A stretch of DNA of 64,000 nt from Lingula anatina (GCA_051362555.1 CM120640.1:38666788-38730787); one strand, 5' to 3'. Shown: positions 15,601 through 51,016, numbered from the stretch's first letter. A program made the numbers and translations. The notes: a model not told the origin generated them from the letters alone.

Positions 15601-18600
15601 TAGCAGAGAGCTTTACCTTTGGGAGTTTACAGGGAAATATCAACAAGGGTGCTTTATGTAATCTCATTTAATGGCCAATCAATTAGGCAAATTATTTTAT
15701 AACACTGAAATTAGCTAAGTGATACCCAAGGGAAATTTACAGACTAACCCTCTCAAAGGTCTTTCAGGCCCATAAGTCACAACTTAAGAAAAGCACAAAA
15801 CAATAATGCACAAAATAGGAGACTACCAATTCTGACGCAATAATACATTATGTTTAACTGCACAGTCAACATTAAATTTTAATTTTGCACAACAGGTAAC
15901 ACGTCAAAAAACAAGACAGCACTGTTCTGAAATGTTTTTTTTTTCCATTTTTAACACTTTTTTAACATAAAACAAAATTAACAGTTTACTGCCATTTTTA
16001 TATGATCAACTAAGAAAATTGATGAGATGTGAAAAATATCAATAGAACAGTGTCAAATGTCCAATTTCCTCCATTCTGAGTTTCTGAACATAGTGAATGA
16101 TTGAATCTTACAAACTGCAATGATATGAGTTTATTTCCATTTTTGACACCTTATTACACAATACACGATTACAAGTTTACCATCATTTTTACGTAATCAA
16201 CTAACAATGTTGTAAAGATGCAGGAAATGTCAAACAAACACTTTTACATATCTTATTAATAAATAATGAGACTGTTAACATGCCTAAGAATTGAATCTGA
16301 GGAAATGTGAAACAAGACAGCACTATTCTGAAATGGGTTTATTTCCATTTTTAACACTTTTTTAACATAAAACAAAATTAACAGTTTACTGCCATTTTTA
16401 TATGATCAACTAAGAAAATTGATGAGATGTGAAAAATATCAATAGAACAGTGTCAAATGTCCAATTTCCTCCATTCTGAGTTTCTGAACATAGTGAATGA
16501 TTGAATCTTACAAACTGCAATGATATGAGTTTATTTCCATTTTTGACACCTTATTACACAATACACGATTACAAGTTTACCATCATTTTTATGTAATCAA
16601 CTAACAATGTTGTAAAGATGCAGGAAATGTCAAACAAACACTTTTACATATCTTATTAATTAAATAATGAGACTGTTAACATGCCTAAGAATTGAATCTG
16701 AGGAAATGTGAAAAAACAGCATAACTTATAAAATAATGGTCCGATTATGCTGATTTTCGAACTTGACCTGCGTTTTAGTAAGATTGATTACTCCTGTGAG
16801 TTTCATTACAACAGGCCTATGGGTTTTCCTTGAAATGTGTTAACAGTGTTGCATATATGCTGAAAAGTGAAAAAACAGCATAACTACTAAAATAGTGGCC
16901 CGATCATGCCGATTTTCGAACTTGATCTGCTTTTTAGTAAGATTGATTACTCCTGTGAGTTTCATTACAACAGGCCTATCAGTTTTCCTTGAAATGTGTT
17001 AACAGTGTTGCATATATGCTGAAAAGTGAAAAAACAGCATAAATTCTACAATAATGGCCCGATCATGCTGATTTTCGAACTTGACCTGTGTTTTATGAAT
17101 ATTCATCAGCTCTGTAAATATAAAGCCAAAAAGTAAAACTGTCTTCCACTTATGGTGTTAACGCTGAAAGTGCACGGCGACGGCGACATGATCGGCGACG
17201 GCGACGACAGACGCAGGTGATGGCAATATGTACAGACACATCTGTGTCTGTACATAAAAATACATTTTGAGATAATTATATCTTACATTTTAAAACTAGA
17301 CATTGGAATAAATGTATGAAAGCGGTTGGAAATTCAAGGATTCTGATTTAAATCTGAAGTGCATAATTTAGGTTAATGAAATAGCTGTTACCTTGACTGC
17401 TAACAGCATTTGGTGGAAGAGTAATTTTGCAATATTTTCCTCAAAGAAACCTTTGCTGACAACTCTGTCAAAAAGTTCCCCACCTTCAACCCTAAAAAGA
17501 AAATATTCAAATGCATTATAATTCTTCATAATTAATAAACAATTCATTTTTTTACTAAAGTACTATTCTTTGAAGATGTAATTTATATTAAAAATCATTA
17601 AAGTGATAATAACTCTTCGTTTCGGCCAAAAAATGAATTTTCCTGGAGTAAACAACAATTTTCCCATACTTACCAATGGTTAATGAATCCATTTTTACAT
17701 TCAAAGTTAGTCCCTGGTTTTTTTCTAAAAAGTTTGGTTTTTTGTTAAAATCTCTTAAGAGATTTTAACATAGTATAGCCATCAATGGAGGTCACGTGGT
17801 CAAAAGACAAGCTCAGATATCAGAATAATAGCTATAACAGCCGTTTTTGTGGGAAAACAGAATATATTATATTTTTATGAGTCACTCACAATGTTTTTAT
17901 TGTGAAATACAGATTTCATACGAAGAGTTATTATCCCTTTAAGTATTAATGTTCAGTATTATAAAGTGCAAAATATAATATTATGCAATACTTACAGCTC
18001 TAATACTATGTAAACACACTCAGGTGTATCTATCACATCTTCTATGGATATAATACATGGCTACAAAAATTCAAGCAAAAATTGTGATTAAATTTCAAAT
18101 TTTTTTCATGTTCACAATACACTTTAACTAGGCAATCTTATTTCATGCAAAAGAAAAAATCAATTAAAATCTTCATACAAGGATAGCAATTTCCTGTAGT
18201 GAAATATCATATTTTTGAAATCACATAACATACATAAACACACTTCATAAAGTATGTGTATAAAAACAAGAATACTCACATGTTTTAATCCCTTTAAAAT
18301 ATTAACTTCATTGATCACTTGCTTTTCAAGATTCTGAAAAATAAATTAACATCAATGGTTAAAACACCTTACTGTAAAACTAACATCAATGTGATTAGTA
18401 TTTATTAAAACAATTGTATGTCCTTCTTTGTTAATGTTTGTATATATTTTCCTGAGAAATTTTGTGGAAATCTATTACCAACTCATTCTTGCCACCAATG
18501 GAAAATCTTCTCTTCTGTATGATTTTGATGGCCCATGTCTTGCATGTGCCTTTTTCAAAGGCAAGACGCACTTCACCAGCAGCACCCCTGTCATAACAGC

Positions 18601-23020: not shown

Positions 23021-25218
23021 TTTAAGGATGAGTGCAGATAACCATTGGCAAAGTGCCCATCGTCAAATTTTTAAAATAATTTGCTATTATAAAGTTTATG
23101 CATATATTTGTTGTGTGAAAAAATATTATTTGGTTTGAGGCATCGTTTGAGGCATCGTATTTTTAATGAGTAATATGTGGGGGTGGAGGTAACCAGATTT
23201 ACCTGTTGTATGCAGTCTAATATGAATCAGAGCAAGTTATTTCAGCATATATATTGCATAAATAATTTTTTCTAATGAAACTTGTCTTGTGGTGAAAAAA
23301 AGAGGTATATGTTAAATAATTGCGATGTGGCACAAGTAAATGGGAAAGTAATTGTTTTTTTTTTGTTTGTTTGTTTGTTTCTTTTTTTTAATCCTAGAGA
23401 AGAGAGGGAGGGGTGGTGTATTACAATATTTTCTCACAGAAACCATCACTGATTTCACTTAACTGTATAAAAGTCTTGTAACTAGAAAAACTTGTATCAG
23501 CGTATTTATTAATTTTATATAACTTTTCTCACAGACCAGCATTTGTTGGTCTAAATAATTATATTGTTAACCAATACACATTTTGTACAAAGCCCTATAG
23601 AATAGTAAAAAATGCTAAAAGCAAAAGGCTGTTACAGTAACACAAAAAAATCATGTGTTAAAGCACTCTAAACACCTATTTGGAATGTTTCCATTAACCA
23701 TACAATAAACAAGGTATAAATTGTACCAAAATAATGATAAGGTAAAAGTAAAAACTAAACGAAAATATACTACACATAATAACAGTAATGGCCAATAATC
23801 TGTATGACAATGAAAATAAATCACCTAAAAAGTACTTCATATATGATAATGTATGTGATAAAGACCTTTTATAGAAAGCAATGCAAGAGTTATTTTATAC
23901 AAAATATATAAATATGAGAATAAAAAATGTATAATAAACAATAGATAATTAATCAGATGGGATGTCGGAAACACTTTCTGCCTCGCTTATACTCTCACCA
24001 CTTGATGTTGGTAAATGCAAGAAGTTATAATGAGACTCTTTATAACTTGGTAAATGTGAGGCATCCTTGCTCCCTACCTCCCCCCCCCCCCCACGCACAC
24101 ACACACAAACACACACGCGAAAGTTTTTTTAAACCATGCCAGTTCTGAACTGTGAATAGGGGAACTATGGGTCGCTGCATGCCATCTTCTTTCAAACAAA
24201 TCAAAGAAATGTTAAAATATTTAAGCAATTATAAATAGTAACTAAAACATTTTAATTTTAAAAATCACACCAAGCATATTATCTTTTCGTTATCCTTTCT
24301 CCTTGCAAAATCAAAGCAACCAAAAAACTGGACAACTCCACATAAATATTAATAGCAAAAATGTATTATCACTTTATCTTTATTGTCATCATCTGTGAAA
24401 CAAGATATGAAATGAAAGTTTCTTCAAAGTGCATTGTGGATCAGTGTATATTGTGGATAAGTGTTCCAGTGTACGCGGACAAGGTCGTTCAATGACGGCC
24501 TGGGGCAGGTTAGTAAACTTCAAGTTGATATCATGTCAACAAGATGCAAGGACACTGTCAATCACAATTAGGGGAGAGGCATGCGTGGTTTCCCTTCAAA
24601 AACTATTATAGCCTAACATTGATTCTTCCCTCCGAAGTAATTGTGTGATTTTTTTCTTTTTAAACAAAAAAGTTAAGGTATGAAAACGCTGAATGTATTT
24701 CAAACGTAGGTGTATATACAATACAAATAATGAAATCTGTGTCTCACTCTCACACGACACCCCCGCGTCCAAACTGACAGGATGGTGGCGACAGCAACGC
24801 CCCCAGTCGACAATCTAAGATTGGAAGTCTATGAGCGATAGATTAATTAATGCCAAATTTCCGCATGACAACGATTTATAGACTCCCGGGAATTATTTTC
24901 CCTCAACGCTCTTTGTCGCGCTGGCGGTCAATGCAGCATTTATTTCAAAACAAGTTGACCGCAAATTAAGCACGATTTTGCACCTTCAAGTTCCGTGTCA
25001 CGTTTTCATATCATGCATCTTTTATTTCTACTAGTATTCTCTGCCCAAAATGCGTAAAAAAAGAGAGTTATCTTACCAGGTTGTTTAGAAAACTTCTTTT
25101 TCCTCCGACTACACGTCTTCTCTCCCGTTCACCTCCAGGTTAAAATGACCACTCAGCTTCGCTTCTAACACCACTACACGTCACTTCCGGGCACAATCAG
25201 TCTTCTCCGATTCCCTTC

Positions 25219-27274
25219 TTAATCGAGTTATTCTTTTCCATCCACCATTTTTCATCGTGGTACACATTCAACTCACTTTCCCATTTTATTTCACTTTTTG
25301 GTCTAAAATACAAACTAGTAACAAAGGTATTGTATGTAGGTCTTACTCCCTTTTGATTTCTCATCAGAACTTCTAGAAATTTTGGTCTAAATGGAATATT
25401 CATATAGATATCAATGTTTTTCTTATTTCTAATCATTTTCTCGATGCACTGTACAATACCATAAAACATTGTGAATGGTGGGTAGAAATCAAATTTACTA
25501 CAAAAATTGGCATAATTTAAACAATTATTATTTTCATCTACAAAATCAATTACACGTACTATTCCTTTCTCATGCCACTTCTTGTAATAACTTGTTTTAC
25601 TATTGATTTTAATCATGTTATTAAACCATACCCCTTGATAAAACTCTAAATCAGCCTTATCCATTATTTGTCTAAATTTATAGAATGCTCGAAATACATC
25701 TTTCCAAAATCTATTGGTGGTTTTCTTTTCAATGTGCTTTATATATTCCTGTCCAAAATTCACAAGATCCCTAAAATTGTATGATAAAGTATCTAACAAC
25801 AATTGATGCCAGGGGCGTAACCAGACCTTTAAAAATTGTACGCACAGATTTTGAAAATTCCCAGGTACGATTATATTCCTTGAAAAATACACTGAATTAA
25901 TGGAGAATAATATCATGGTTGGCTAAAAAAATTGTACGCACAGTGCATCCGTGCGTATGCCTGGTTACGCCCCTGGATGCCATGATGTTATACTAATACA
26001 GCCCATCATTCTTCTCAACCACGAAATTTTCAAGCTATCAATAAACCATTTGACTGAAATCATACGTAATCCACCATGCTGGTAATCTTGAATTAATGTA
26101 TTTCTTGCTATTCTATCCTTCTTATTGTTCCATATGAAATTAAAAAATGCACTTTCTAAATCCTTTATATGTTCTTCACTCAAATTAGGTAGGCTTATAA
26201 ACAGATGTGTTAATTTAGACAGCATTATTGATTTAACTACAGTAATTTTTCCTGAAACACTTAATAGTCGCCTTGACCAGGACTTTATCAATTTTTTAAT
26301 ATCCTTTACCTTGTTTTCAAAATTTAATTCAACCATGTTAACCAAGTCTACAGTAAATATAATTCCAAGAAAAGTAAACGGTTCTTGGGACCATTTGATT
26401 CCATAGTTCGCATTAAAATTTCTCACCGTAAATCTTAATGGTCCAATTTTAATGCAGCATGTTTTTTGGTAATTTGGCTTTAAACCGGAAAACTTAGCAA
26501 ATTGGTCTATTAGTGAAAGTGTGTTTTTTAATGACTTTTCTGTTCCATCCAATAATATTGCAGTATCATCCGCATACTGCATTATCTTATATTCTTTATT
26601 TCTAATTTTAATGCCCTTGACTGTTCTACTTTTTCTAAACATAGCACCCATTATCTCTACGCATAACAAAAATAAATATGGGGAGATCGGATCCCCCTGT
26701 CTACACCCACGATATATTTTAAAAAAAGATGAGGCATTGCCACCCTGAATCGCACATAGCTTAAAATTAGTAAAAAATATATCAATCCACTTCTTTATAT
26801 TTTCCCCAAAGTTGAAAAAACTTAAGACCTTCCTAATAAAATTCCAAGATATTGAATCATATGCTTTCTCAAAATCGACCATTAAAACTAGGCCTGGTGT
26901 GCTATTTTCATTGCAAACATGTATGATATCATATAAAAGTCTTGTGTTCTCACCCAAATATCTACCCGCCATAAAACCCTTTTGATTTTCGTGTATTAAT
27001 TTAGGGAGAAACGGTTTGATTCTGTTAGCAATTATTCTAGATAAAATTTTATATGTGACATTTAATAGACAAATCGGTCTCCAATTTTTTATAAATTCCC
27101 GTGGTTTGTCTCCCTTGGGTAGTATTGATATCACACCAAATTTTTGCATTGGGGAAAGTTCACCTTTTTTAAAGGTCTCAATAAATGATCGATGCAGAAA
27201 ATGTCAATGTCAACCCAGAAAAATTAAAAAAATTCAGGAGAAAAGCCATCACATCCAGGGGCTGAATCATTATT
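25219..27274 (-). mobile_element. Truncated non-LTR retrotransposon (L1/Tx1-like) ORF2 reverse transcriptase fragment
   Basis: SAPGCDG, ILPKGDK, NWRPICLLN, DFEKAYD, RGCRQGDPISPYLF and QYADD motifs. Disrupted by a stop/frameshift near 27.2 kb and a MITE at 25810-25975. No endonuclease domain or 3' end is visible. Confidence 0.92.
25810..25975. mobile_element. MITE with 5-bp TSD inserted in the LINE RT
   Basis: TIRs CAGGGGCGTAACCAG / CTGGTTACGCCCCTG and TSD GATGC; excision rejoins ...ITSWH-QLLLDTL of the two ORFs. Confidence 0.85.
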
Positions 27275-28549: not shown

Positions 28550-29679
28550 TTCGGAGTTCTTTTAAATGCTTCCGATAATAAAGATATGCGAAAAAGACTC
28601 GTTATTTTTTTATATATAAAATCAAAATAGCCAGTAGACTCGTACACAGCTTTCAAGAGTGTGGACAGGTGCGCAGACCTACGTCTTCACAATTTTGTAC
28701 ATGTATATATGCAAGCTGTGGCGATATCACCTCATGTACCGGCAGTGTCAATTCATTACGATTTTTATGTCTTGTTTGAAGGATATCTTAATAGATTTTT
28801 AAAGTGATAAAATGAAAAGATTTCCTGCATTGTTTGACTCGTAGCTACTGTGTATACAGGTAAAACTGACACGCAGATCGTTCGTCGGTGAACTGATTAA
28901 ATCGTTTGGTACCTGATGAGGCATCAGGTGTTACTTGTTCAATTGTTCGGTAAGGCGGGCGGCCACAACTACGACCTTTCCTCTGTAATTAAAACCTTTT
29001 AAGTGTTAAATGGGTGAGACAGGAATTCTCGACTCTTTCCCAGACGATAATTAAAGTTTACCGTGTCTTACTCTAGTATATGTACAAAATTTACGACAGG
29101 TAAAAAATGTCAGAGTTCGGAGTTCTTTTAAATGCTTCCGATAATAAAGATATGCGAAAGAGACTCGTTATTTTTTTATATATAAAATCAAAATAGCCAG
29201 TAGACTCGTACACAGCTTTCAAGAGTGTGGACAGGTGCGCAGACCTACGTCTTCACAATTTTGTACATGTATATATGCAAGCTGTGGCGATATCACCTCA
29301 TGTACCGGCAGTGTCAATTCATTACGATTTTTATGTCTTGTTTGAAGGATATCTTAATAGATTTTTAAAGTGATAAAATGAAAAGATTTCCTGCATTGTT
29401 TGACTCGTAGCTACTGTGTATACAGGTAAAACTGACACGCAGATCGTTCGTCGGTGAACTGATTAAATCGTTTGGTACCTGATGAGGCATCAGGTGTTAC
29501 TTGTTCAATTGTTCGGTAAGGCGGGCGGCCACAACTACGACCTTTCCTCTGTAATTAAAACCTTTTAAGTGTTAAATGGGTGAGACAGGAATTCTCGACT
29601 CTTTCCCAGACGATAATTAAAGTTTACCGTGTCTTACTCTAGTATATGTACAAAATTTACGACAGGTAAAAAATGTCAG
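28550..29679. repeat. Near-perfect tandem duplication, 2 x ~566 bp
   Basis: 28550-29113 matches 29116-29679, with only one substitution noticed. Confidence 0.9.
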
Positions 29680-30826: not shown

Positions 30827-33800
30827 GGTTTTTAGCACCGCTGTAAGTGTTTCGACGTAGCAGGGCTCCCCTACCCACAATGCAATTTCCATTTCCGGAA
30901 AAGATGAAAAAGGCTAATTGCGAACGGCGATATCACATAGAGGCTACAGTGTATTACATGGGGCGAGCATGGGCAAGTAATATAATGGAATCGAGACGCT
31001 TGCGCTCGGTCGCAATGCGCGCTGCTTTCGAGTTACGGGGCCCGGGAGAGCAAAGTAACGCAGCACCACAGCTTTGTATCCAAAAACCAAAATTCAACTC
31101 ATTACCTGGACATCGGCTAGTTTTATGGAAGAAATTGGAGTGACAGAAATAGTGACGAGATTGTAAAAGTTTAAGTGAGAGGCGAAAGAGGATAATTTCT
31201 ACTAATGATTAAACGAGCATACATGCGAGTCCATTTAAATTTATTTGCAAGTCTCACTTTTTTTTAGCGATCTGTACACGACCACTTTTTTTACAAAAAA
31301 AAAAAAAAAAAAAGAAAGAAAGAAAATTATAGAATATTTTTTATTCAACTATTATGTACAATTTTGAATATTTACAGTCGATTTAAAAAGGACTAATAAT
31401 CAGTAATGAACTATGTAAACGCAACGAATTAATACATAGCAGTATTATCAAAAGTTCTAAGATTTTCCATCGTCTTCATCTAGCGTCGGAACGCACACAG
31501 TCCGATAATGCAGGTCTTGTGGTCGGAAACTGGTACCAGATGCTCTCGGGCCGTGGGGAAAAACCCGTCTAAACCCTTCGTGGGGAATGCCGGGAAAGTG
31601 CCCACGCATGGATAATTCGGTCCTTATAACATGACGAAATCGGTTTCTATTGGCACGGCGCTGCGTACAGTTCAAGAATCGTCCCGTTTTAGACAGCATT
31701 GTGTGACGGAATAACCTTTGTGTTGACTAACTATTCTCTATATATACTATACACGAGGTGAAGCATAAAAACTTATTAAAGTAATTCTTACAGAAAAAGG
31801 CACTGAAGCCAATAAAAAACTAACAAGAGACATAACAATTAAACAGAATCATTTTGACTTTATCTTGGAGAATTAAAACCATAAATAAAGTTAATCATTT
31901 TACAACTGCAAGCATCTTTCAAAACTTGATTATAGTTCTCTTTATGATAGAATGCAAACAGATTCAAGTAATATGATTATAACTCGGGAATATCAATGAT
32001 TTCAACTAAACTTTGATATATAATTCGACTTAAAATACCAGGTTTCTAAAATGTAAATTTGCACTGAAATCGCAACTACCTGCATGATACAAGTACAGAA
32101 TAAAGCAAGCTTGCTTCAAAATATTTCGAATCTCACATTACACTGTATGACCGCCCATGTAAATTTCAATCTGAATTTTTTTGATCCGGAGAAAAGGTGC
32201 ATATGTGATGAAGTGGATGTATTTGTCAAGTATAACACTTGAGAAAATCTGAATATTAGTAATGTGATCTCTATCTTGAGAGATGACAGCATCTCTCAAG
32301 AAGAGCAGACTGTACAAAAAATATAATGATATATTTTCTCACACGTAAAATATTTCATTACAGATTTTGCACAATCTATCAATGTAAAATCTCTTCATGT
32401 AAAAGCGTTTACATGAAGTCAGATTTTACAAAGATGTGAGGGTTTGTTAGTAAGGTTAGTGTGCAGGTTAAGACCTTTTCAAATGCCATACTGACAAACA
32501 ACTCCACATCATCAAAAGCACAAATTTGAAAAATGACCATCTCAGATTGAAACAAAACACAGACGACCACAAGTGGTGGGAATGTTTTTGTGAGCAAAAA
32601 ACTATCTGCATTCAGAATGTGGATAAAGCAACTCTATATTCAAATTTATTAATATAATAATTATAGCAACTGTAGAGGTAGACTTTTCCTACAGAAGCAC
32701 ACATCTTATTCAATTGATCTTGTATGGAATGAAGAATTATCTTGAACCTCAGTTTTCTCTTCTGTTATTGAAATAAAATGGTTCACTGCATAAGGCATAA
32801 AATACAAATGAAATTTGATGCAATTTCACCTTGACATGTTTGTGACCCATGAACCCCAAATATTCTCAGCATCCAAAAGACTGATACATTATTAGACTGT
32901 ATTCCCACTACATTCAGTACTGTATATTGCCTTCATTACCATTCCACATTCTTTATATTTGTTTGCAGAGCAAGCCGTGTCCTTCAACACCAAAACTCGT
33001 GGGATGTCCGAGCATCCATGAAAGTGTCCACAGGGCTCCTTGCTAACGCTGTCCAGTGTTCAACATTTGGTCTTGGGTCGACGTTATCTGACATCATGCA
33101 GGCGTAATTATTGGAAAACTTCCAATTCGTAGCCTACAAATGAAATCCAACTTTTACTCAAAAGTATGAAAAGCTATATCGAAAGCTTGCAGTAACTGCA
33201 ACAAAGAAAGTATATCACTGGTATTTACACACCGTTAACATTAATGAAAAGCTTGGTTCTTAAAATGATCAGAGCGTTATTTCCAAATGTACAGTGAAAT
33301 ATGCTTCCTTTATTGAAATATATATATCAACTTTTTAGAGTAAGTAGACAGCAGTCTTCAAAAAATAGATTATTTCAAACATTTGACAAAAAAGTAAGAA
33401 AAGATGTTGCTATATTGAATATTGTAATGTTAGCCTCCATGTTAAATTGTTGACTGTCTGTGCTACTTCTAATTCTACTGTTTGTTTACATAGGATATAG
33501 TTTTTGATCACTGTCAATAATAAGAAATGCCATAATACACCAATAATAATACTTAAAAAAATCAGAACCACTTTTCTTAAGTTGTTGATCCCCAATAACT
33601 TACAAAGTTATCTGTATAAAGATCCCTCAATCCTGAAGAAGTGTTTCATCTGGAGGTTTGGTAGTTGCAATCTTCATTTTTAGAATCCGCCACTTTTGGT
33701 AGCCTGCAAATTTAAATTATTACTTCAAAATGTAATAAAAGTCAACCATTTGTATATGAAATGTGTTTTTAAAGTTTCAGCAGTTTGATGGGAAATAAAT

Positions 33801-34329
33801 ATAAAAAGCACTTTTGTCACAAACTTGGAAAAAACATTCAAGCGAAATATTTTGACATGCCACTGGCGACCTTCAGACTTAATGTCACAATGGGGTATTG
33901 CACAAATTAGTTTTAACGAAGGAAAAGGAACACTAACAGCATTTAAACGACTCTACTCAAAGACAAGTTTAAGTAAAGCCTGAACAATCTAGATCCAGCG
34001 GGAGGAGTGTACTAGTATTCCATTAAGTGTTTAATTTGTGAAGGATTTCTATGGGAGAGACAAAGAGAAAGTTGAACGTTAGAGTTAAAGAACACGGGAA
34101 GGAATAAGAAAGGGTACCCGAAGAGGGAAAAATACACTACAGCCCAAGGTAGCCTTCTGCTACAACGAACCATCACAAAAAAACATTGATTGAGAGTGCC
34201 AAGATTCTACAAAAAGAAAGTGACTGGAGAACAAGAGGCGTAAAGGGAGGCATATAAACCAGGAAAATGCCTAACAATCTGAACAATATAGAGAGATGGA
34301 AATAAATACTCACTTCTACGGTGGCCTTT

Positions 34330-34680
34330 TATTACCACAACCACAGCACTGGAGGTGCGGGTGGTAGCTGCTAGTATACAATTTCTGGACCAGTGACAAC
34401 GTCCCGGAGTCACATTGGTGGTGGGTGTTGGGGGCGGTAGCTCCAAGTAATCTGGACCAGTAACCACGCCCTGGAGTCACATTGGTGGTGGTGGGTGGTG
34501 GGGGCGGTAGCTCCAAGTAATCTGGACCACTGACCACGCCTCGGAGTCACATTGTTGGTGGTGGGTGGTGGGGGCGGTAGCTCCAAGTAATCTGGACCAG
34601 TGACCACGCCCCGGAGTCACATTGGTGGCGGTGGGTGGTGGGGGCGGTAGCTCCAAGTGATCTGGACCATTGACAACGTC
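34330..34680. repeat. ~70-bp GC-rich minisatellite, ~4.5 copies
   Basis: Unit GGAGTCACATTGGTGGTGGTGGGTGGTGGGGGCGGTAGCTCCAAGTAATCTGGACCAGTGACCACGCC; bounded on the minus strand by an acceptor at 34681-34682 and a GTGAGT donor near 34312. Confidence 0.9.
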
Positions 34681-36136
34681 CTGCAGAATATTGAGACTGT
34701 TGAGGATCTGAAAGTTGACGAATGGCATGTCAAAATATTTTGTATGAATGATAAGGTTTTTCCACATCTGTGACAAATTAAAAGAGCTTTTTACCTGTGA
34801 AAAATGAGCACTGAATTTGCTAGAGTAAATTGTAAATAGAAAACAAATACCTGCACCGAGTGACAGGTCCCAAACATTCTTAAAACAATTGTCTAAGACC
34901 TTGCACAAAATGCTCAGTTTGTTGGAGTTGCACTGATAAAAGATTTGTATTATCTATACAATGAATGACAATCTAGTTCATTTACCCTTATCCTGTCCCA
35001 TAACTTACCTTGAATACTCTCTAATCACAACTACTGAAGGGCTCTTGAAACACTATATGATATAGCTGACATGGCTTTCTCCATTTTAGCCTTGTTAACC
35101 TTGTTAAAATGGACCGTCATCAGGACAGGCGCTCGCCAATGCTATCTGCCTCAACTACAAAATAAAAAATTATAAGTCAAAAGTTTCCCTCTTTACTTCT
35201 CCCACCCAAATCCAATCTACTAACCATAAATATCTTAATCCTAGGAGTGGGTCATGGGTAAAAGACATTGCCTTCTGAATGTGAGCTGTCAAATTATTGT
35301 GGCTAACGGTTTTTAGTTTTTCAAGGTATGAAAAATCACTTAAGTGTTTTGTTTTCCCCCAAAAACATGAGTGATATGTACCTTTTAAGGCTTGATAGGT
35401 TTCCATCTCTGTGAAACGCCATATGCTTCTGATGCTCCCCCATGCAGCCCCCTAACATACAGACCATGGCAGGACTCAACCATGCACCAAGGATTGAATG
35501 TGACCCTCTTCTTGCACCTCTTTCAAAAAAGCGGGTCTTTATCAGGAATTGCCCTAATTGAGTTCTGTAAATAGAAAGGAAAATTTGATTGGTTTTCAAA
35601 AATTGTATATCAAAAGCAGTCTGCAGCCAGAAAAATTGTTGGAATCGGTAGATTTCCAGAATGTGTCAATTTGGTGACATGGCTGTTAGATTTTTTCTAT
35701 AAGTATGAAGAAGAGCTTTAGATTTATTTTAAATGTAACTGTTACATCATGATTCGAGAAAAATGTCAAGGTCTTGTTAATACAAATATTAATGCAATCC
35801 AGTCTAGTCCTATTGAACTTTGTATTCGAACCAGTGAATCAAGATTCAGACATCTCTATCTAGTTTTTAGGAAAGAAGGTGGACTGAATGGCCAGTAGGG
35901 TGAAAAGTTTATGGCACAGACTGCTGCTGAAAAATTAATTTTAGTGTATTGTTCTCGCCAGTAACACGGGTTACCTTGCAGGTTTTTCCGCCTCAGTGAA
36001 ACACCATATGCTTCAGACGCTTCTCCAATGCAGCCTCTTCAACAGACCGTGGCAGGACTCACTGGCACCAAGGATTGAGGGATGTATCGGAAGTGTGCAC
36101 GTGGCCCTCTTCTCCTTGCAGTTGCCATGAAACGTT

Positions 36137-36905
36137 GGACAGGACTCGCTGGACACTTCCTAGTGCAGCCACCTCGTAGACAGACCATGGCAGGACTCGC
36201 TGGACGCTTCCCCAGTGCAGCCACCTCGTAGACGGACCATGGCAGGACTCGCTGGACGCTTCCCCAGTGCAGCCACCTCGCAGATAGACCATGGCAGGAC
36301 TCGCTGGACGCTTCCCCAGTGCAGCCACCTCGCAGATAGACCATGGCACGACTCGCCGGACGCTTCCTTAATGCAGCCACCTCGTAGACAGGCCATGACA
36401 GGACTCGCTGGACGCTTCCCCAGTGCAGCCACATCAAAGAGACAGACCATGGCAGGACTCGCTGGCACCAAGGAATGGTCAAAGTAGCTTAAGTGTAGAT
36501 GTGGGACGTCTCCTTGCAGTTGTGTTCTGTCAACAGAAAGAAAAATGAATTTATGACTTTTCATACTATGTCAGCAGTCTGCAGTCAGGCTTACCTTTAA
36601 GTGGCTTCCATCTCATTGAAACACCATATGACAAGACTCGCTGGACGCTTCCCCAGTGCAGCCACCTCGTAGACAGACCATGGCAGGACTCGCTGGACGC
36701 TTCCCCTGTGCCGCCACCTCGTAGACAGACCATGGCAGGACTCGCTGGACGCTTCCCCTGTGCAGCCACCTCGTAGACAGGCCATGGCAGGACTCGCTGG
36801 ACGCTTCCCCAGTGAAGCCACCTCGTAGACAGACCATGGCACGACTCGCTGGACGCTTCCCCAGTGAAGCCACCTCGTAGAGAGACCATGGCAGGACTCG
36901 CTGGC
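36137..36905. repeat. 52-bp minisatellite in two arrays (~36137-36465 and ~36630-36905)
   Basis: Unit CAGACCATGGCAGGACTCGCTGGACGCTTCCCCAGTGCAGCCACCTCGTAGA, ~5-6 copies per array; a diverged single copy lies at ~35440-35480. Confidence 0.92.
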
Positions 36906-36961
36906 TCCAAGGGATGGTCGAAGTAGCTCAAGTGTAGATGTGGGTTGTCTCCTTGCAGTTG

Positions 36962-38267
36962 TGTCCTGTAAACAGAAATAAAAACGAGATTAGATTTCTT
37001 TCATTTCTCAAACTTCCCTTCCAAAAAGAAAAAAAGATTACATACCTTAAGGAGTGTAGTCGAAGTCCCACAGGTGGCGCCCATCATCTTCTATGTCCTG
37101 TAAACAGAAATAAAAACGAGATTAGATTTCTTTCATTTCTCAAACTTCCCTTCCAAAAAGAAAAAAAGATTACATACCTTAAGGAGTGTAGTCGAAGTCC
37201 CACAGGTGGCGCCCATCATCTTCTATGTCCTGTAAACAGAAATAAAAACGAGATTAGATTTCTTTCACTTCTCAAACTCCCCTTCCAAAAAGAAAAAAAG
37301 ATTACATACCTTAAGGAGTGTAGTCGAAGTCCCACAGGTGGCGCCCATCATCTTCTATGTCCTGTAAACAGAAATAAAAACGAGATTAGATATCTTTCAT
37401 TTCTCAAACTCCCCTTCCAAAAAGAAAAAAAGATTACATACCTTAAGGAGTGTAGTCGAAGTCCCACAGGTGGCGCCCATCATCTTCTATGTCCTGTAAA
37501 CAGAAATAAAAACGAGATTAGATATCTTTCATTTCTCAAACTCCCCTTCCAAAAAGAAAAATAGATTACATACCTTAAGGAGTGTAGTCGAAGTCCCACA
37601 GGTGGCGCCCATCATCTATGTCCTGTAAACAGAAATAAAAACGAGATTAGATTTCTTTCATTTCTCAAACTCCCCTTCCAAAAAGAAAAAAGATTACATA
37701 CCTTAAGGAGTGTAGTCGAAGTCCCACAGGTGGCGCCCATCATCTTCTATGTCCTGTAAACAAAAAATAAAAACGAGATTAGATTTCTTTCATTTCTCAA
37801 ACTTCCCTTCCAAAAAGAAAAAAGATTACATACCTTAAGGAGTGTAGTCGAAGTCCCACAGGTGGCGCCCATCACCTTCTATGTCCTGTAAACAGAAATA
37901 AAAACGAGATTAGATATCTTTCACTTCTCAAACTCCCCTTCCAAAAAGAAAAAAAGTTTACATACCTTAAGGAGTGTAGTCGAAGTCCCACAGGTGGCGC
38001 CCATCATCTTCTATGTCTTGTAAACAGAAATAAAAACGAGATTAGATTTCTTTCATTTCTCCAACTCCCCTTCCAAAAAGAAAAAAGATTACATACCTTA
38101 AGGAGTGTAGTCGAAGTCCCACAGGTGGCGCCCATCATCTTCTATGTCCTGTAAACAGAAATAAAAACGAGATTAGATTTCTTTCATTTCTCAAACCCCC
38201 CTTCCCAAAAGAAAAAAAGATTACATACCTTAAGGAGTGTAGTCGAAGTCCCACAGGTGGCGCCCAC
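36962..38267. repeat. 132-bp tandem array, ~10 copies (minus strand: 52-nt exon + 80-nt intron)
   Basis: Units start at 36964, 37096, 37228, 37360, 37492, 37621, 37752, 37884, 38016 and 38147. Confidence 0.95.
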
Positions 38268-38623
38268 CAGTTTGCAGTCTGCTTCCTGGACCTGTAATAA
38301 AAAGAAACCTGGAAAGCATGGGAATATGCAATGACACTACGACTCCAGCCCACGACAGCAAAAAGGTGAAGTATCCTGCGAAGATGACCGAGCGACGATT
38401 CCTCGTGGGGAGAAGCGAAGATTTTAGCTGGCCAGCTAAGAGAAACGCCGAATCCACCGTCTAGACGTCTGCGTGTGCAGGGAACAATATGTCGAAGAGC
38501 GATGCGTTGACGTAGGATGAGCAGAAGATTCGAAGAAATGGGAGTCGACTCCCGTGTCCTTTGTGCTTGATACAGGGCGCAGCACATGGCATCCGTTCTG
38601 TTGCTCTAGATCTGTCCGCTGTT

Positions 38624-38706
38624 GAGTGAACGCACTTTTAAAATTTTGCGCTTTTATACCTTTGTTGACGTATAGTCACATGATGGCGTTCTTGTTGTCA
38701 CCAATG
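38624..38706 (-). promoter_or_regulatory. Pol II core promoter (TATA box, initiator, upstream E-box/CRE/CCAAT-like sites)
   Basis: TATAAAA at 38658-38652, TCACTC initiator with the A at 38627 (31-nt spacing), TGACGTA ~38666, GTCACATGA 38675-38683, CCAAT ~38701. Confidence 0.55.
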
Positions 38707-39217
38707 GTCAACTTGTTCAAAGGGGATGGCCTTTGATAGTGATGCGCAAAGTTGGTAATAATATCTTATCAACATATACATTTTCTTTTATATTTTATAT
38801 TTTGATTATTCTGCCTGTCAGTTTGTTTATAATAAGAGTAATAAGTTCTAAGCAATGTCTGTGAAATGTGCAGGCAAATTTGATGAAAATTTCTGAGCAA
38901 CATACCTTCTCCCTAAAATTTTTATAGGTACGATGTCCGTTAAGCTGGTAGCTGTGAACTTCTCGCAGGCTACTTTAGTGTGCGTGTATTTGAACACTGA
39001 TCCAAAATGTGGATAATGTAATTTGGCGTAGGGTGACTGCATTTTTGAGGCAGCCTGAGGGAGTATGGTTGTTCTGATTGTAGTGAATTGTAGAGAGACA
39101 ATTGAAAGTACACTGGACTTAGCATGTTCAGTCACCCAAGTACTCTGAAACACATTTTGTAATCAGCTGACTTGTTATTCTGAAAAATGAAAAAACAAAT
39201 TATATTGATTTACAAAA

Positions 39218-39430
39218 CTGGAAGATAGAAGCAGTGGATCATATTACTTATGCCAGGCAGAAGAAACGACTGAATGTATATTTTTATATTCAAAACGTCT
39301 ACTGATTTAGGTAATAATTAATAGCCTGGAAGATAGCAGCAGTGGATCATATTACTAATGCAAGGCAGAAGAAACGAGTGAATGTATATGTCTATATTCA
39401 AAACGTCTACTGATTTAGGTAATAATTAAC
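39218..39430. repeat. 2 x ~108-bp tandem duplication
   Basis: CTGGAAGATAG...GGTAATAATTAA repeated at 39218 and 39326. Confidence 0.85.
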
Positions 39431-42400
39431 AACTGACGTCTCCCTTCATGGCGTCGGGTTATCAGTACTCCCACACCAGTAACATGAGTTATGAGTTGAG
39501 CAGAAACAGAAAAAGATTTTTTATAAAGATAATGCAAGTATATGTGTAGGCCCATTTATCTATTTTTATATTACTAAACGTAAGAATTGTTTGTCCAAGT
39601 GAAACTTTACTTACATCAGCCTAGCAACTAAATCTGACGTTTAAACGTCTCCGAAAATAACTAGAATTTTTTGAATAACGCAATAATGCGGCCACCTTCG
39701 AGGTGTCGCCCGGTTTTTAAAAATTGAAAAAAGAAACTTTTCGGGGCGTCTTTTGTCGCGGGTCATTATTTTCAGTTGTTTGATGTTTTTTTGTAATATT
39801 TTAGCCATTGATAGAATCTATAATTCAGTTACATCCATGATTAGCTAGACGAAATGGTGACAGGGAAAAGTCAAATTTTTTAAAAAACGGCAAAAACTGC
39901 ATTCTCTTAGAAAGCAATTAGCAAACATTCATTACTGTGAAAAATTCAACCGAAGTTGAAGACAAAATGTGTCAAAAATAAACGTGCATGTCGTAATACC
40001 TATTTAAAGCAGTCTAATTTTTGTTAGTATTAAAAACGTGTAAATATTATCCACATAGGATATTTTTAAAGCCTTCGATATTTAAAATATTTAAACTTCC
40101 CATACTTTGAGGCATGCATGAGTCGGAAAATGTTTGCATAATTACATAAAAAACTAGAATTATCTCTTTATGTGACCACAGTTTACTCATGTGCTTTACA
40201 TCATTCCCTTAAACCCTTTCCCAATATCGATTTAAGATATTTTTGACACATTTTGTCTTCATCTGAATCACGTGAACGTTATCAAGTGTCATAAGGCGTA
40301 CATTACGAAAATATTTAGGTCTTGGAACGTGATTTGATGACTTTTTTAAATGCATATATATACAATTATAAATTCATAATTAAGTTATTTAATATCAAAT
40401 TATAAGTTCTGACCGAGTTTTAAAATTTATTTTAGGAGGGGTAAAAAACCCCAACCCCATCTAATATATATTGGATACATCCGTAGGCTTATGTCCTTAG
40501 AACTAGGCGTACAAAATGCGTCTTCTAGCTAAAGTTATTATTATGGTGTATGTGTAATTAAAAAAAAAACTACGTAAGAGTGACAATAGGTCATGTGTTT
40601 CGAATGCACCCCCACTCTCCGATCAGACATTACTTTTGTATAATTCACAGTCCATCTTCGTTGTAGTTTGTGACTTTACGTCATTTCTTAGTGAAGCGGT
40701 GTTGTCCTCAATTTACCTTAAATGTCCAAATTACTAAGAAGAAACCACTTGCAAGAATTATAAGGCTTTTTATACTGCTAGGTCTATAGACGTGATACAC
40801 ACGATATTTTGCAACCCCACAAAATCTGTTTCTTAAAATTTTGGTTCCACCACAAAGCTTAGCACTATCATTCTTTTTTGCTTTATTGATATATTTTCAG
40901 TACATAAATAACCATTGTCTGTTGCCCAATTTTGCACAAAATTAAGATAATCCCCAAAACCTCATTAATTGTGTTTCCTCCATCCCAAAAAATATTAAAA
41001 ATTTCTCCTCATAATTTAGTAGTGCACTGGCATCTACACAGTACATAAATGTATCATTATAATAACATCTTGTTCTTACTGATAACATAATTAGCTTAAT
41101 TCCATAACAATTTTAAAATGTTAATAACAATGAAAATTCAAAGTAGATGGCAAGATTCTTATTGTGCTGATAAAGATAAAATATGTTAATTCAATACTGA
41201 TTAGGTACTGTATACTGGCTCATTGAAAAAAGGGAACCGTTTCACAAAAAAATCTGGATAGCCAACTATACAAAGTCAACTTTGCGATATTGTCTTACAA
41301 CTACAATTTTTTAAGAATGATTGGTCCACAGTTGATGAGTAGAATATACATAAATGGGCTACTGGCACCACTGCAAGTAAAAGACTTGCCAAGACAATCA
41401 AAATGTAAATCAAAGGAAAGTGAAAAGAAAGTAAAAAGACTGGAAAAAATGAGGCAAAATTGATAACTTGGTTAATGAGTGAACAATACTCTAGTTTTGA
41501 TTAAATCAGAACTTTTCTTGCACCTTTTCTTGGGGAATAGGGGATTGGTGTAGTGAAAGCCCAACCTTAACCTTTGGATGCTATTCTCATTAAACATATG
41601 CATAAAAGACAAAATTTAGACCACAAATAGATTCATGCAATCTACCAACCTTTTTTACAGTGAGTCATTGCAACTTATCAGTTAATTCTGGCCTAGGCTA
41701 TCTGTAAGATTCTTACAACTGTGAAGTGCAACTTAGCCAGCTAAGTCTTTATAGGCTCAGATTTTAGACTACAAACCAGCTTCAAACATTTAGTAAAGCA
41801 AGTGCAAGGAATAGTTAGTTTGAAGGCTCTGCCTCCCCATAGGGTGAGAACAAACACAGTCACACTGTATGATACATTACAGAAAACATTGGTTAAAAAT
41901 ATACTCTGGAATTTTACATTTTCACTAGTATAGAATCAATTTGATTTCTAAAACTGACTTATTATAAAAATACTCCTGTCAATTTAAAACTTTTTCATAA
42001 AGCATATCTGAAATACACTGATAAAATGTTATTAAAAATATTAAAATTTGATATTCACAGATAAAATAGGCTCAAGTCAAAATGATTAAGACAATTATTG
42101 AAGCATTATTCAAACCCCAATTTTGATTATTTTCATACAATTAGTGATTCACAAGTTCTTTAACAGAGTTGTACCTAATCTGACTACATGATATCTATCA
42201 AAATCTCTCTAAAATCAAGTGACAAAAAATGCCCACAGTTTCAAGCACCATAAAATATGGCTTAAGTAAGTAATATCCTCAATTGTTTCATAATAAACAT
42301 CATGTCACTTGAATGTACCATTCTCCAGAAAAAAAGATGAACTTGCAAGGTTTGATAAGTCTGCGTTTACAGGTAGATGTCATAATTTAATATACATGAG

Positions 42401-42577
42401 GCAGCTTTATATCGTGGTCAACAATATTATATTATATCAGTTTCTCTAGCCTCCATGTCTTATTCGTCATAATATTTTGATTTTCAAATTCAGGGTCCCC
42501 TAGTAAAAGATCTTGCATTTCCTCTTGATCACAGAAGAATCTGAGTTGAGAATACAGTTGAGAATACAGAGTTAAAA

Positions 42578-42683
42578 TTAGGCCTCTCCTCTCCACTTGG
42601 GGTCCTCTTGCAACTGAACCTGGCTGACATCCATGGTTACATCTTGAAAAATAATATATTCCCAAAAAAGTTTAAATGGTGCA

Positions 42684-49600: not shown

Positions 49601-50702
49601 ATGTACCTGTATACAAGAGATAACTGTATTGAATTGATTTTCTTCCATTTTCAACACCTTTTTTTCATATAACAAAGTAATCAATTTACTGTCATTTTTA
49701 AATGAACAACTGAGAAAATTGTTGACATAGGATATCAATAGAACAATTTTAAATGTCCAGTTTGCTCCATTCTGAGATTCTGAACATGGTGAATGATTGA
49801 ATCTGACAAACTGTAAAGATATGAGTTTATTATTATTTCCATTTTTTGACACTTTATTACACAATTACAGGTTTACCATCTTTTTTATATGATCAACTAA
49901 CAATATTGTTAAGATGCAGAAAATGTCAAAAGAACACCTTTACATATCTAATTAGTTCACAGATGAGATTGTTAACATGCCTAAGAATTAAATCAAAGGA
50001 AAAAAACACTTATATACAAAAAAGGCATAACTTCACCAGAACTGAACCAATGGAGCTTATTTTCGAACTCCATCTGTATTTCAGTAAGACTGATCACCCC
50101 TGTAAATTTCAAGACAATTGGCCAATTGATTTTCCTTGAAATGCGTTATCGGCATTGCATACATGCTAAAAAAAGTGAAAAAACAGCATAACTTCCATAA
50201 AATTAGTCCAATCACGCTGATTTTCAAACTTGACCTGTGTATTATGAATAGTCATCAGTTCTGTAAGTTTCAAGCCAAAAGGTAAAACGGTTTTTCACTT
50301 ATCGTGTTATCAGTGTTGCATATATGCTTAAAAAAATGAAAAAAGAGCATAACTTCCATAAAAATGGCCCAATCATGCTGATTTTCGAACTTGACCTGCG
50401 TATTATGTATATTCATTAGTTCCATAAGTTTCAAGCCAAAAGGTAAAACGGTTTTTCACTTATCGTATTATCGTTGTTGCATATATGCTGAAAAAAGTGA
50501 AAAAACAGCATAACTTCCATACAGATGGCCATATCATGCTGATTTTTGAACTTCACCTGCATATTATGAAAGCTCATCAGTTCTGTAAGTTTCAAGCCAA
50601 AAGGTAAAACGGTTTTTCACTTATCATGTTATCGGTGGTCAAAGTGCACGGCAACGACGACAGACGCAGGTGATGTACATAACCTGTGTCTGTACATAAA
50701 AA
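46608..50702 (-). mobile_element. HINE family copy 3 (composite/rearranged, ~4 kb)
   Basis: Blocks homologous to copies 1, 2 and 4; ~160-bp units at ~50020-50640; ends in TGTACATAACCTGTGTCTGTACATAAAAA. Confidence 0.75.
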
Positions 50703-50858: not shown

Positions 50859-51016
50859 GGGGCCGTAGCGATAGTCCGAAGGTTCAATAGTCCGAAGGTT
50901 CATTGGTCCGAAGGTTCACTACAGAACCTTCGGACCAATGAACCCTTGATTAAAAAATCGATAAAAATGTTACCACTTTTCGGACCAATGAACCTTCGGA
51001 CTATCGAGAAGCCCCC
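50859..51016. mobile_element. Foldback-type MITE with 15-bp subterminal repeats
   Basis: GTCCGAAGGTTCA repeats inverted as GAACCTTCGGAC; GGGGC...GCCCC ends; flanks GTAACTGA / ATAACTGA (imperfect 8-bp TSD). Confidence 0.7.

What the first reader, a model, noticed from the sequence alone, without database searches (positions are those of the whole stretch)
32640..38706. A 'satellite' that is a tandem array of exon-intron units inside a promoter-driven spliced transcript with no long ORF
Seen: on the minus strand every 132-bp unit at 36962-38267 splits into an 80-nt textbook intron (AAG|GTATGT donor, CTAAT branch point ~27 nt from the end, polypyrimidine tract, CAG) and a 52-nt exon (GACATAGAAGATGATGGGCGCCACCTGTGGGACTTCGACTACACTCCTTAAG) with stops in all three frames. 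Upstream is a TATAAAA 31 nt from an initiator, with E-box/CRE/CCAAT-like sites. Downstream, the 52-bp and 70-bp minisatellites also sit within AG..GT-bounded exons, and an AATAAA lies near 32645. Inference: a ~17-exon Pol II RNA whose mature form is a concatemer of repeats. It could be a scaffold lncRNA, a small-RNA precursor, or a decaying accessory gene of a large mobile element that is still amplifying exons.
Basis: partly seen in the sequence, partly recalled or inferred. Interest (0 to 1): 0.8.

Follow-up and report, generated by a model that had tools for sequence, protein, structure and literature searches.

The report
Multiplied intron inside a noncoding RNA
In a lamp-shell (Lingula) genome, an apparent satellite is ten copies of one gene's first intron with bits of its flanking exons; the gene is transcribed and spliced, keeps those short introns in most molecules, and likely makes a non-coding RNA whose repeats grow with little constraint.

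Summary
The anatomy is real, and RNA-seq confirms it. The 132-bp array (36962-38266) holds ten 79-80-nt GT..AG introns and nine 49-52-nt exons. Stranded poly(A) reads show minus-strand transcription at about 10-14 RPKM and exon-to-exon splicing in the array.

Most reads keep the short introns (spliced joints 9 of 104, 18 of 143, 11 of 66), while the long introns downstream are removed.

The host is Lingula. RefSeq calls the locus uncharacterized LOC106172600, with a 132-136-aa ORF that is frameshifted here and has no homolog elsewhere. Three more L. anatina loci share the downstream exon module but read it in different frames, so it is non-coding. The unit is exon 1's 3' end, intron 1 and the first 4 nt of the next exon: a pre-existing intron multiplied by tandem duplication, a known process.

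No snoRNA, mirtron or RNA structure was found, and evidence for selection is weak (p=0.048). Best reading: a repeat-built non-coding RNA gene family with drifting repeats; a Firre-like scaffold is not excluded. The scan noted this architecture before in three other genomes.

The parts
38652..38658 (-). TATA box (TATAAAA), 31 nt from the initiator
   Evidence: sequence; RNA depth 4.8 in 38539-38759 and 0.7 in 38760-38980 in X1
38229..38627 (-). exon 1 (399 nt, 52% GC); start site inferred; holds the 5' ORF from ATG 38587 (RefSeq LOC106172600) and an out-of-frame upstream ATG at 38592
   Evidence: depth 14 in X1 and no internal joint listed
36962..38266 (-). 132-bp array: ten 79-80-nt introns (donors 38228, 38096, 37965, 37833, 37701, 37573, 37441, 37309, 37177, 37045) and nine 49-52-nt exons; unit = 3' end of exon 1 + intron 1 + first 4 nt of exon A + short filler; partly spliced
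   Evidence: joints
36595..36965 (-). exon A, module copy with 5.3 x 52-bp repeats
   Evidence: joint 36964-37045 in 5 reads of X2; alignments
36527..36594 (-). 68-nt intron, 3' half homologous to the array intron, apparently mostly retained
   Evidence: 0 of 1000 shuffles reach the alignment score; depth inside it and no listed joint
35975..36526 (-). exon B, two fused module copies with 6.2 x 52-bp repeats
   Evidence: joint 35564-35975 in 29/19/21 reads of X1/X2/X3
35382..35564 (-). exon C, single module copy
   Evidence: joints 35564-35975 and 35154-35382 (3/15/12 reads); blastn to exon B E=4e-16
35009..35154 (-). exon D (stops in all frames; skipped in 4 reads of X3)
   Evidence: joint 34707-35009 in 28/29/18 reads
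34314..34707 (-). exon E with 4.3 x 70-bp repeats; often not spliced onward, RNA running to about 33890
   Evidence: joint 33702-34313 only 6/1/5 reads
33802..34793 (.). 87-nt inverted repeat pair (34707-34793 and 33802-33877, 74% identical) around exon E; possibly an old MITE-like insertion
   Evidence: score 81, best of 300 shuffles 33
33604..33703 (-). exon F
   Evidence: joints 33702-34313 and 33132-33603 (16/10/3 reads)
32630..33133 (-). exon G, last exon of the long form; AATAAA at 32650-32645; 3' end not pinned
   Evidence: depth 11-19 falling to 1-6
32255..32301 (-). 12-bp perfect hairpin followed by CTAA|T, a Helitron-type 3' motif; membership in this locus uncertain
   Evidence: only such site on both strands of the 64 kb; 0 in 6 shuffles

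Best explanation
The 132-bp array is a tenfold tandem copy of the first intron and flanking exon ends of a transcribed, spliced, polyadenylated minus-strand gene, which is likely non-coding and whose repeats likely expand by unequal crossing-over under little constraint. SHOWN: transcription and strand; use of the array's donor and acceptor; efficient removal of the long introns and frequent retention of the short ones; the unit's make-up (exon 1 3' end + intron 1 + GACA + filler); older duplications of a roughly 180-nt exon module; three paralogous RefSeq loci. INFERRED: a duplication with breakpoints in the two exons flanking intron 1 made a chimeric 52-nt exon with ready-made splice signals, and unequal exchange amplified it. 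With no frame to protect, units of 52, 52 and 70 nt (all 3n+1) spread freely. The intron-keeping RNA likely stays in the nucleus. Fully spliced molecules, whose 5' ORF stops in the first array exon ahead of up to 15 junctions, would be removed by nonsense-mediated decay (rule recalled). The concatemer would be a by-product rather than a selected product.
For: STRAND AND LEVEL: depth 88.9 vs 2.1 by mate orientation in X1, the same orientation as the minus-strand MOV10-like gene; about 10-14 RPKM. SPLICING: spliced vs unspliced array joints 9/95, 18/125, 11/55, 8/25 (tallied). Intron depth per copy is 14/19/8 against single-copy exon depth 28/18/16, assuming ten copies. Depth inside two long introns is only 0.5-3.9. 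ORIGIN: the last 39 nt of exon 1 equal the last 39 nt of the 52-nt exon, whose first 4 nt equal those of exon A. Differences between units do not rise with distance (3.0-4.0 per 132 at all lags). NON-CODING: one paralog's predicted protein matches the same stretch of exon C in two frames and exon C in all three. The 5' ORF is frameshifted here against RefSeq at codon 97 and a 1-nt deletion inside it shows in 8 of 15 X1 reads. It has one hit among 1.84 billion proteins, its own locus, and an Atlas model of pLDDT 0.46 with no feature hit. WEAK CONSTRAINT: acceptor lost in unit 2, an 8-nt exon deletion in 4 of 10 reads, no fold better than shuffles in 7 of 7 segments.
Against: Exons vary less than introns among units (2 of 52 vs 12 of 81 columns, Fisher p=0.048). 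Donor and branch region are invariant in 10 of 10 introns. Splicing of the array is also seen in the more divergent samples X7 and X9, and in X7 spliced joints dominate (8 of 9). The paralog models, at 46-49% amino-acid identity, appear to join modules at the same exon boundary (read from proteins only). Expression is moderate and differs between samples (depth about 1 in X4). All of this fits a selected RNA function. The 5' ORF is longer than 99% of shuffles, has a GCC-ATG context, and the two RefSeq isoforms differ by in-frame indels. Nuclear retention and decay were not tested. Reads come from other individuals, whose copy number is unknown.
Confidence: 0.5

Rival explanations
1. A functional nuclear scaffold lncRNA of the Firre/Rsx type: the repeated 52-nt exon, 52-bp and 70-bp motifs would be multivalent docking sites for RNA-binding proteins, and retention of the ten U-rich introns would tune its location or valency.
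For: Repeats lie in exons. Exons vary less than introns among units, p=0.048. Moderate, sample-dependent expression and a spliced share that varies from 9% to 89% between runs. Exon boundaries are apparently kept in three paralogs. Precedent: RRD makes up 7 of 13 human FIRRE exons and is a nuclear retention signal (PMC4820808, passages).
Against: No structure beyond chance. One acceptor is dead and indels segregate. The module is not local to one locus. No relative outside L. anatina in the protein collections. No localisation data.
Confidence: 0.22
2. A passenger transcription unit of a rolling-circle (Helitron/Helentron-type) non-autonomous element, copied to several scaffolds and decaying while its internal repeats amplify.
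For: Three related loci on contigs of 346, 36 and 687 kb, against 1673 kb for this locus. The only hairpin + CTRR|T motif of the window lies about 390 bp past the AATAAA, on the same strand. Reads with loose ends at 32315 and 32444 suggest a dispersed repeat there.
Against: No matching 5' end or shared terminal repeat. No transposase or Rep/helicase among the 15 of 76 ORFs scanned. The motif may end a small separate element. The paralogs are old (46-49% identity), exon 1's ORF was not found in them, and ordinary segmental duplication explains them as well. Two viral and metagenome DNA patterns found nothing.
Confidence: 0.12
3. An orphan protein-coding gene (121-136 aa) with an extreme multi-intron 3' UTR, whose array splicing sets the level of mRNA through nonsense-mediated decay.
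For: The ORF starts 40 nt after the inferred start, in a GCC-ATG context, with 119 or more codons in 11 of 1000 shuffles. RefSeq predicts it. The two RefSeq isoforms differ by indels of 1 and 3 codons.
Against: Frameshift at codon 97 against RefSeq; 1-nt deletion in 8 of 15 reads at 38524 (17 indel rows were not shown, so a compensating one cannot be excluded). No homolog, not even in the paralogs. No Pfam match. pTM 0.16. An out-of-frame ATG lies 5 nt upstream.
Confidence: 0.1
4. A host or precursor for small RNAs: snoRNA or mirtron in the repeated intron, or a piRNA precursor.
For: Head-to-tail exon-intron units are the layout of snoRNA host arrays such as SNHG14/116HG (recalled; search returned 0 papers). 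The gene lies next to a MOV10-like helicase gene, probably by chance.
Against: Rfam 0 hits at gathering score and 0 at E<=1. The C/D pattern gave 3 matches in the window (5.6 expected), none in the array or between 32300 and 38700. The intron folds at z=-1.0 with unpaired ends. The introns are mostly not excised.
Confidence: 0.06

Closest known systems
Multiplication of a pre-existing intron by tandem internal gene duplication (Arabidopsis TOUCH3, Knowles & McLysaght 2006; Gao & Lynch 2009; both as described in passages of PMC4974935; originals not read)
   Same: The duplicated unit holds a whole intron with exonic sequence on both sides, so each copy carries working splice signals.
   Different: Ten copies instead of two, satellite-like and homogenised; in an apparently non-coding gene; the new 52-nt exon shifts frame and holds stops; the copies are mostly retained.
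Firre/FIRRE lncRNA with the exonic RRD repeat (PMC4820808, PMC6316617, PMC7734150; passages read)
   Same: Spliced multi-exon RNA in which most exons are copies of a repeat (here 9 array exons and exons A-C).
   Different: RRD is 156 nt, discontinuous, confined to its locus and shown to bind hnRNPU and retain the RNA in the nucleus. Here the units are head-to-tail with their intron, the module recurs at other loci, and no binding or location is shown.
Xist/Rsx local tandem repeat expansion (PMC6316617, passages)
   Same: Several unrelated tandem repeat blocks (52, 52, 70 nt) in one transcript.
   Different: No evidence of sex bias, chromosome coating or silencing; the RNA is about 3-4 kb; one repeat includes an intron.
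SNHG14/116HG and rat Bsr snoRNA host arrays (recalled; one search found no paper)
   Same: Tandem exon-intron units that splice into an exon concatemer.
   Different: The intron here holds no detectable snoRNA and is only 80 nt.
RefSeq Lingula anatina LOC106172600 (XP_013408834.1/835.1); paralogs LOC106153014, LOC106164805, LOC106173768
   Same: Same locus (99% over aa 1-96) and same first splice into the 52-nt exon.
   Different: Annotated as uncharacterized proteins; the frames are not conserved. No paper in the library names LOC106172600.

Membership tests
Intron multiplied by tandem internal duplication (TOUCH3 type) | repeat unit contains a whole pre-existing intron plus exon sequence from both flanks | tested here: met
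   unit = 39 nt of exon 1 end + intron + GACA of exon A + filler; the intron is homologous to the older 68-nt intron
Intron multiplied by tandem internal duplication (TOUCH3 type) | the copied introns are spliced | tested here: met
   exon-to-exon joints in 5 of 6 runs; minority form; individual units cannot be told apart with short reads
Firre-type repeat-exon lncRNA | spliced RNA with most exons made of a repeat | tested here: met
Firre-type repeat-exon lncRNA | non-coding | tested here: inconclusive
   modules read in different frames; the 5' ORF is frameshifted and without homologs but longer than 99% of shuffles; no ribosome data
Firre-type repeat-exon lncRNA | repeat confined to one locus (local repeat) | tested here: not met
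   the 52-bp module occurs at three other RefSeq loci; the 132-bp unit could not be searched genome-wide
Firre-type repeat-exon lncRNA | repeat binds a nuclear protein (hnRNPU) and retains the RNA in the nucleus | not testable with these tools
   needs fractionation, FISH, pull-down
snoRNA host array (SNHG14/116HG, GAS5 type) | C/D or H/ACA snoRNA in the repeated intron | tested here: not met
   Rfam 0 hits; no C/D pattern in the gene
Mirtron | short intron folds end to end into one pre-miRNA hairpin | tested here: not met
   two short hairpins, ends unpaired, 33 of 200 shuffles fold as well
Helitron/Helentron non-autonomous element | 3' hairpin followed by CTRR before a T (recalled) | tested here: inconclusive
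   one site at 32259, 0 in 6 shuffles; not shown to be the end of an element that includes the gene
Helitron/Helentron non-autonomous element | dispersed copies with shared termini, and an empty site | not testable with these tools
   no genome held; paralogs known only as proteins
Protein-coding gene | one reading frame kept across alleles and paralogs, with homologs | tested here: not met

The most novel reading that the evidence does not exclude
A dispersed family of repeat-built nuclear scaffold RNAs in a brachiopod, in which a ten-intron cassette works as a splicing switch between an intron-keeping form and an exon-concatemer form, with satellite-style amplification of the cassette tuning how many protein-binding sites the RNA carries.
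Probability: 0.15. Interest if true: 0.75.

Novelty: new variant of a known kind. Interest (0 to 1): 0.4.

Why it matters
It is an RNA-confirmed case of a satellite born from a gene's own intron and flanks, with the breakpoints still readable, which shows how repeat-exon lncRNAs such as Firre can start. It also flags four RefSeq 'uncharacterized proteins' of Lingula as probable non-coding RNAs. If function were shown, it would extend repeat-scaffold lncRNAs to spiralians and give a natural series (ten near-identical introns, four loci) for studying retention of short introns.

Tried and rejected
No whole genome is held, so copy number, termini and the 132-bp unit elsewhere are open.

The run search listed no indexed RNA holder, only nine raw-read runs of the same species label. 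I laid 6 of the 9 (X1-X4, X7, X9), each read to 6-30%; no small-RNA or long-read run was listed.

An alternative acceptor 7 nt into the exon would give an in-frame 45-nt exon. Rejected: read letters in X7, the 52-nt back-joints and the RefSeq protein all use the 52-nt exon.

All three repeat units are 3n+1 long, which suggested a +1 frameshift code. Rejected: the paralogs keep no frame, and 18% of shuffled 52-mers are open in all frames too.

An ancestral long ORF without the array reaches only 255 aa and stops early in exon B.

Pairing of the polypyrimidine tract as the cause of retention does not discriminate: array introns have unpaired probability 0.30-0.39, but a well-spliced MOV10-like intron has 0.17.

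Exon D as a module copy (203 of 1000 shuffles score as well) and exon F/G kinship (494 of 1000) were not supported.

DNA contamination as the source of unspliced reads is rejected: they are one-stranded, and long introns are nearly empty.

Searches without result: exon A frame among longer proteins, 0 of 375 candidates; Atlas for the exon E frame, top score 0.83, below its bar; patterns in metagenome and viral contigs, 0; look-alike stretches in the scan, 0. The bacterial promoter scan does not apply to this organism.

Literature: LOC106172600, 0 papers; 'exon-intron unit' + tandem + noncoding RNA, 0; Lingula + lncRNA + brachiopod, 9 listed, none on this locus by title; seen as listings only, nothing on point. 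No supplements were read.
Full report
SETTING. The window is animal DNA (about 33% GC). Pfam finds a MOV10-like AAA_12 helicase upstream on the minus strand, a kinase downstream (CHK2-like by my reading of its exons) and an RT fragment at 25968-27203 (15 of 76 ORFs scanned; gene names are my recall from the domains). The 5' ORF of the feature matches only RefSeq Lingula anatina LOC106172600, so the host is a Lingula brachiopod. No genome is held.

THE OBSERVATION. TRF gives 9.9 copies of 132 bp at 36962-38266, two 52-bp arrays and a 70-bp array. On the minus strand the array splits into ten introns of 79-80 nt and nine exons (eight of 52 nt, one of 49), with a stop in each frame. Donor and branch region are invariant; intron 2 ends CAA. 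TATAAAA lies 31 nt from an initiator. The other promoter motifs and the AATAAA are no more than chance would give.

RNA EVIDENCE. I laid 6 of 9 listed runs, 6-30% of each, at 90% likeness, from individuals other than the window's. X1 is stranded, with the MOV10-like gene as control, and the locus is read from the minus strand (88.9 vs 2.1). X2 and X3 agree over 32300-37097. Single-copy exon depth gives about 10-14 RPKM in X1-X3; X4 shows depth near 1. Six downstream CT..AC joints are seen in X1/X2/X3: 35564-35975 (29/19/21), 35154-35382 (3/15/12), 34707-35009 (28/29/18), 33702-34313 (6/1/5), 33132-33603 (16/10/3) and a skip 34707-35382 (0/0/4). In the array, exon-to-exon joints number 9, 18, 11 and 8 against 95, 125, 55 and 25 unspliced ones in X1, X2, X3 and X9. 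In one search the counts are 6/37 (X1), 8/1 (X7) and 7/11 (X9). Allowing a 2.5-fold undercount of concatemer reads, the spliced share is 19-33% in X1-X3. Intron depth per copy is half to all of exon depth if these animals have ten copies. The 68-nt intron also looks retained; its joint is not among the 15 rows listed (4 hidden). So the long introns are removed, the short ones are mostly kept, and the share differs between samples. Depth of 10-42 inside the 610-nt intron, down to about 33890, points to a shorter 3' form.

ORIGIN OF THE ARRAY. The last 39 nt of exon 1 equal the last 39 nt of the 52-nt exon; the first 4 nt of that exon equal the first 4 nt of exon A; a 9-nt filler lies between. 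The unit is thus a duplication spanning intron 1 with breakpoints in both flanking exons. Passages of PMC4974935 describe the same process for Arabidopsis TOUCH3 as multiplication of a pre-existing intron. Units differ by 3.5 sites per 132 regardless of distance, as expected from unequal exchange (inference). Older duplications made exons A, B (two copies) and C, and the 68-nt intron is kin to the array intron. Exon E sits between 87-nt inverted repeats.

CODING OR NOT. The fully spliced model has 17 exons and 3114 nt. Its ATG ORFs are 136, 131, 121 and 110 aa, all but the 121-aa one arising in the repeats. The exon B frame finds three further L. anatina loci on contigs of other lengths (3 of 101 candidates, 46-49% identity). 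One of their predicted proteins matches window exon C in all three frames, and the same stretch in two, so the module is not coding. The 5' ORF is more ambiguous. For it: 11 of 1000 shuffles reach its length, it has a GCC-ATG context, and the RefSeq isoforms differ by in-frame indels. Against it: a frameshift at codon 97 relative to RefSeq, a 1-nt deletion in 8 of 15 reads, no homolog among 1.84 billion representatives but itself, no Pfam match and a poor Atlas model.

FUNCTION. No Rfam family, no C/D pattern in the gene, and no fold beyond shuffles in 7 of 7 segments. Constraint is borderline: 2 of 52 exon columns vary against 12 of 81 intron columns (p=0.048), while one acceptor is dead and exon indels segregate. 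I put 0.5 on a non-coding RNA gene with drifting repeats, likely nuclear and with spliced forms cleared by decay (both inferred). The rivals get 0.22 (Firre-like scaffold), 0.12 (Helitron-type passenger: paralogs plus one hairpin-CTRR motif at 32259), 0.10 (orphan protein) and 0.06 (small-RNA precursor).

COMPARISON AND NOVELTY. It is built like Firre, whose RRD forms 7 of 13 human exons (PMC4820808, passages; also PMC6316617 and PMC7734150, passages). It fails the 'local repeat' feature, and the binding and location features are untestable here, so I do not file it as a member. It meets both tested features of intron multiplication by internal duplication. I found no paper on the locus (the library lacks most subscription journals). 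Three earlier notes of this scan describe the same architecture in other genomes (unchecked by me), which suggests a recurrent outcome rather than a one-off. Verdict: real, RNA-confirmed, a new variant of a known kind, function unshown; interest 0.4.

Noticed in passing
window 38981-39429: Plus-strand RNA (depth 6.6-9.7 in X1) upstream of the promoter, over a 108-bp two-copy repeat: a divergent transcript.
   Followed up: no
window 8264-8608 and 8692-8973: Two adjacent similar cysteine-rich ORFs at the end of a Slit-like gene (LamG found; name recalled): possibly duplicated, alternative last exons.
   Followed up: no
window 16703-17256, 50145-50637, 53930-54985: 159-161-bp arrays; those at 17 kb and 54 kb end beside near-identical 13-bp hairpins (17227-17256, 53930-53959), resembling Helentron-associated elements with internal satellites (family recalled).
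   Followed up: partly
window 28550-29679: Near-perfect 566-bp tandem duplication (99.8%), recent or an assembly artefact.
   Followed up: no
window 25197-27203: Non-LTR retrotransposon fragment (RVT_1, E=2e-40) ending right at the apparent 5' exon of the CHK2-like gene.
   Followed up: no
window 41000-42600 and 33740-35019: Runs X7 and X9 differ from the window at many fixed sites in the MOV10-like 3' UTR, and X9 has depth of 0.4 or less over exon E and its inverted repeats: a divergent population or cryptic species under one label, perhaps lacking that insertion.
   Followed up: no
P0001/P0002 (window 38300-38587): RefSeq isoforms X1 and X2 differ by three substitutions and two indels, so that assembly holds two copies of exon 1 (tandem copy or unmerged haplotypes).
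   Followed up: partly
window 36101-36255 and 36595/37095: Reads with other letters between 36124 and 36201/36642, and a joint going back 501 nt from exon A to a 52-nt exon (0/4/4 reads), point to structural alleles, further copies or back-splicing.
   Followed up: no
window 39954-40264 and 50897-50944: A 27-nt inverted repeat pair 257 nt apart (MITE-like) and a perfect 21-bp hairpin.
   Followed up: no
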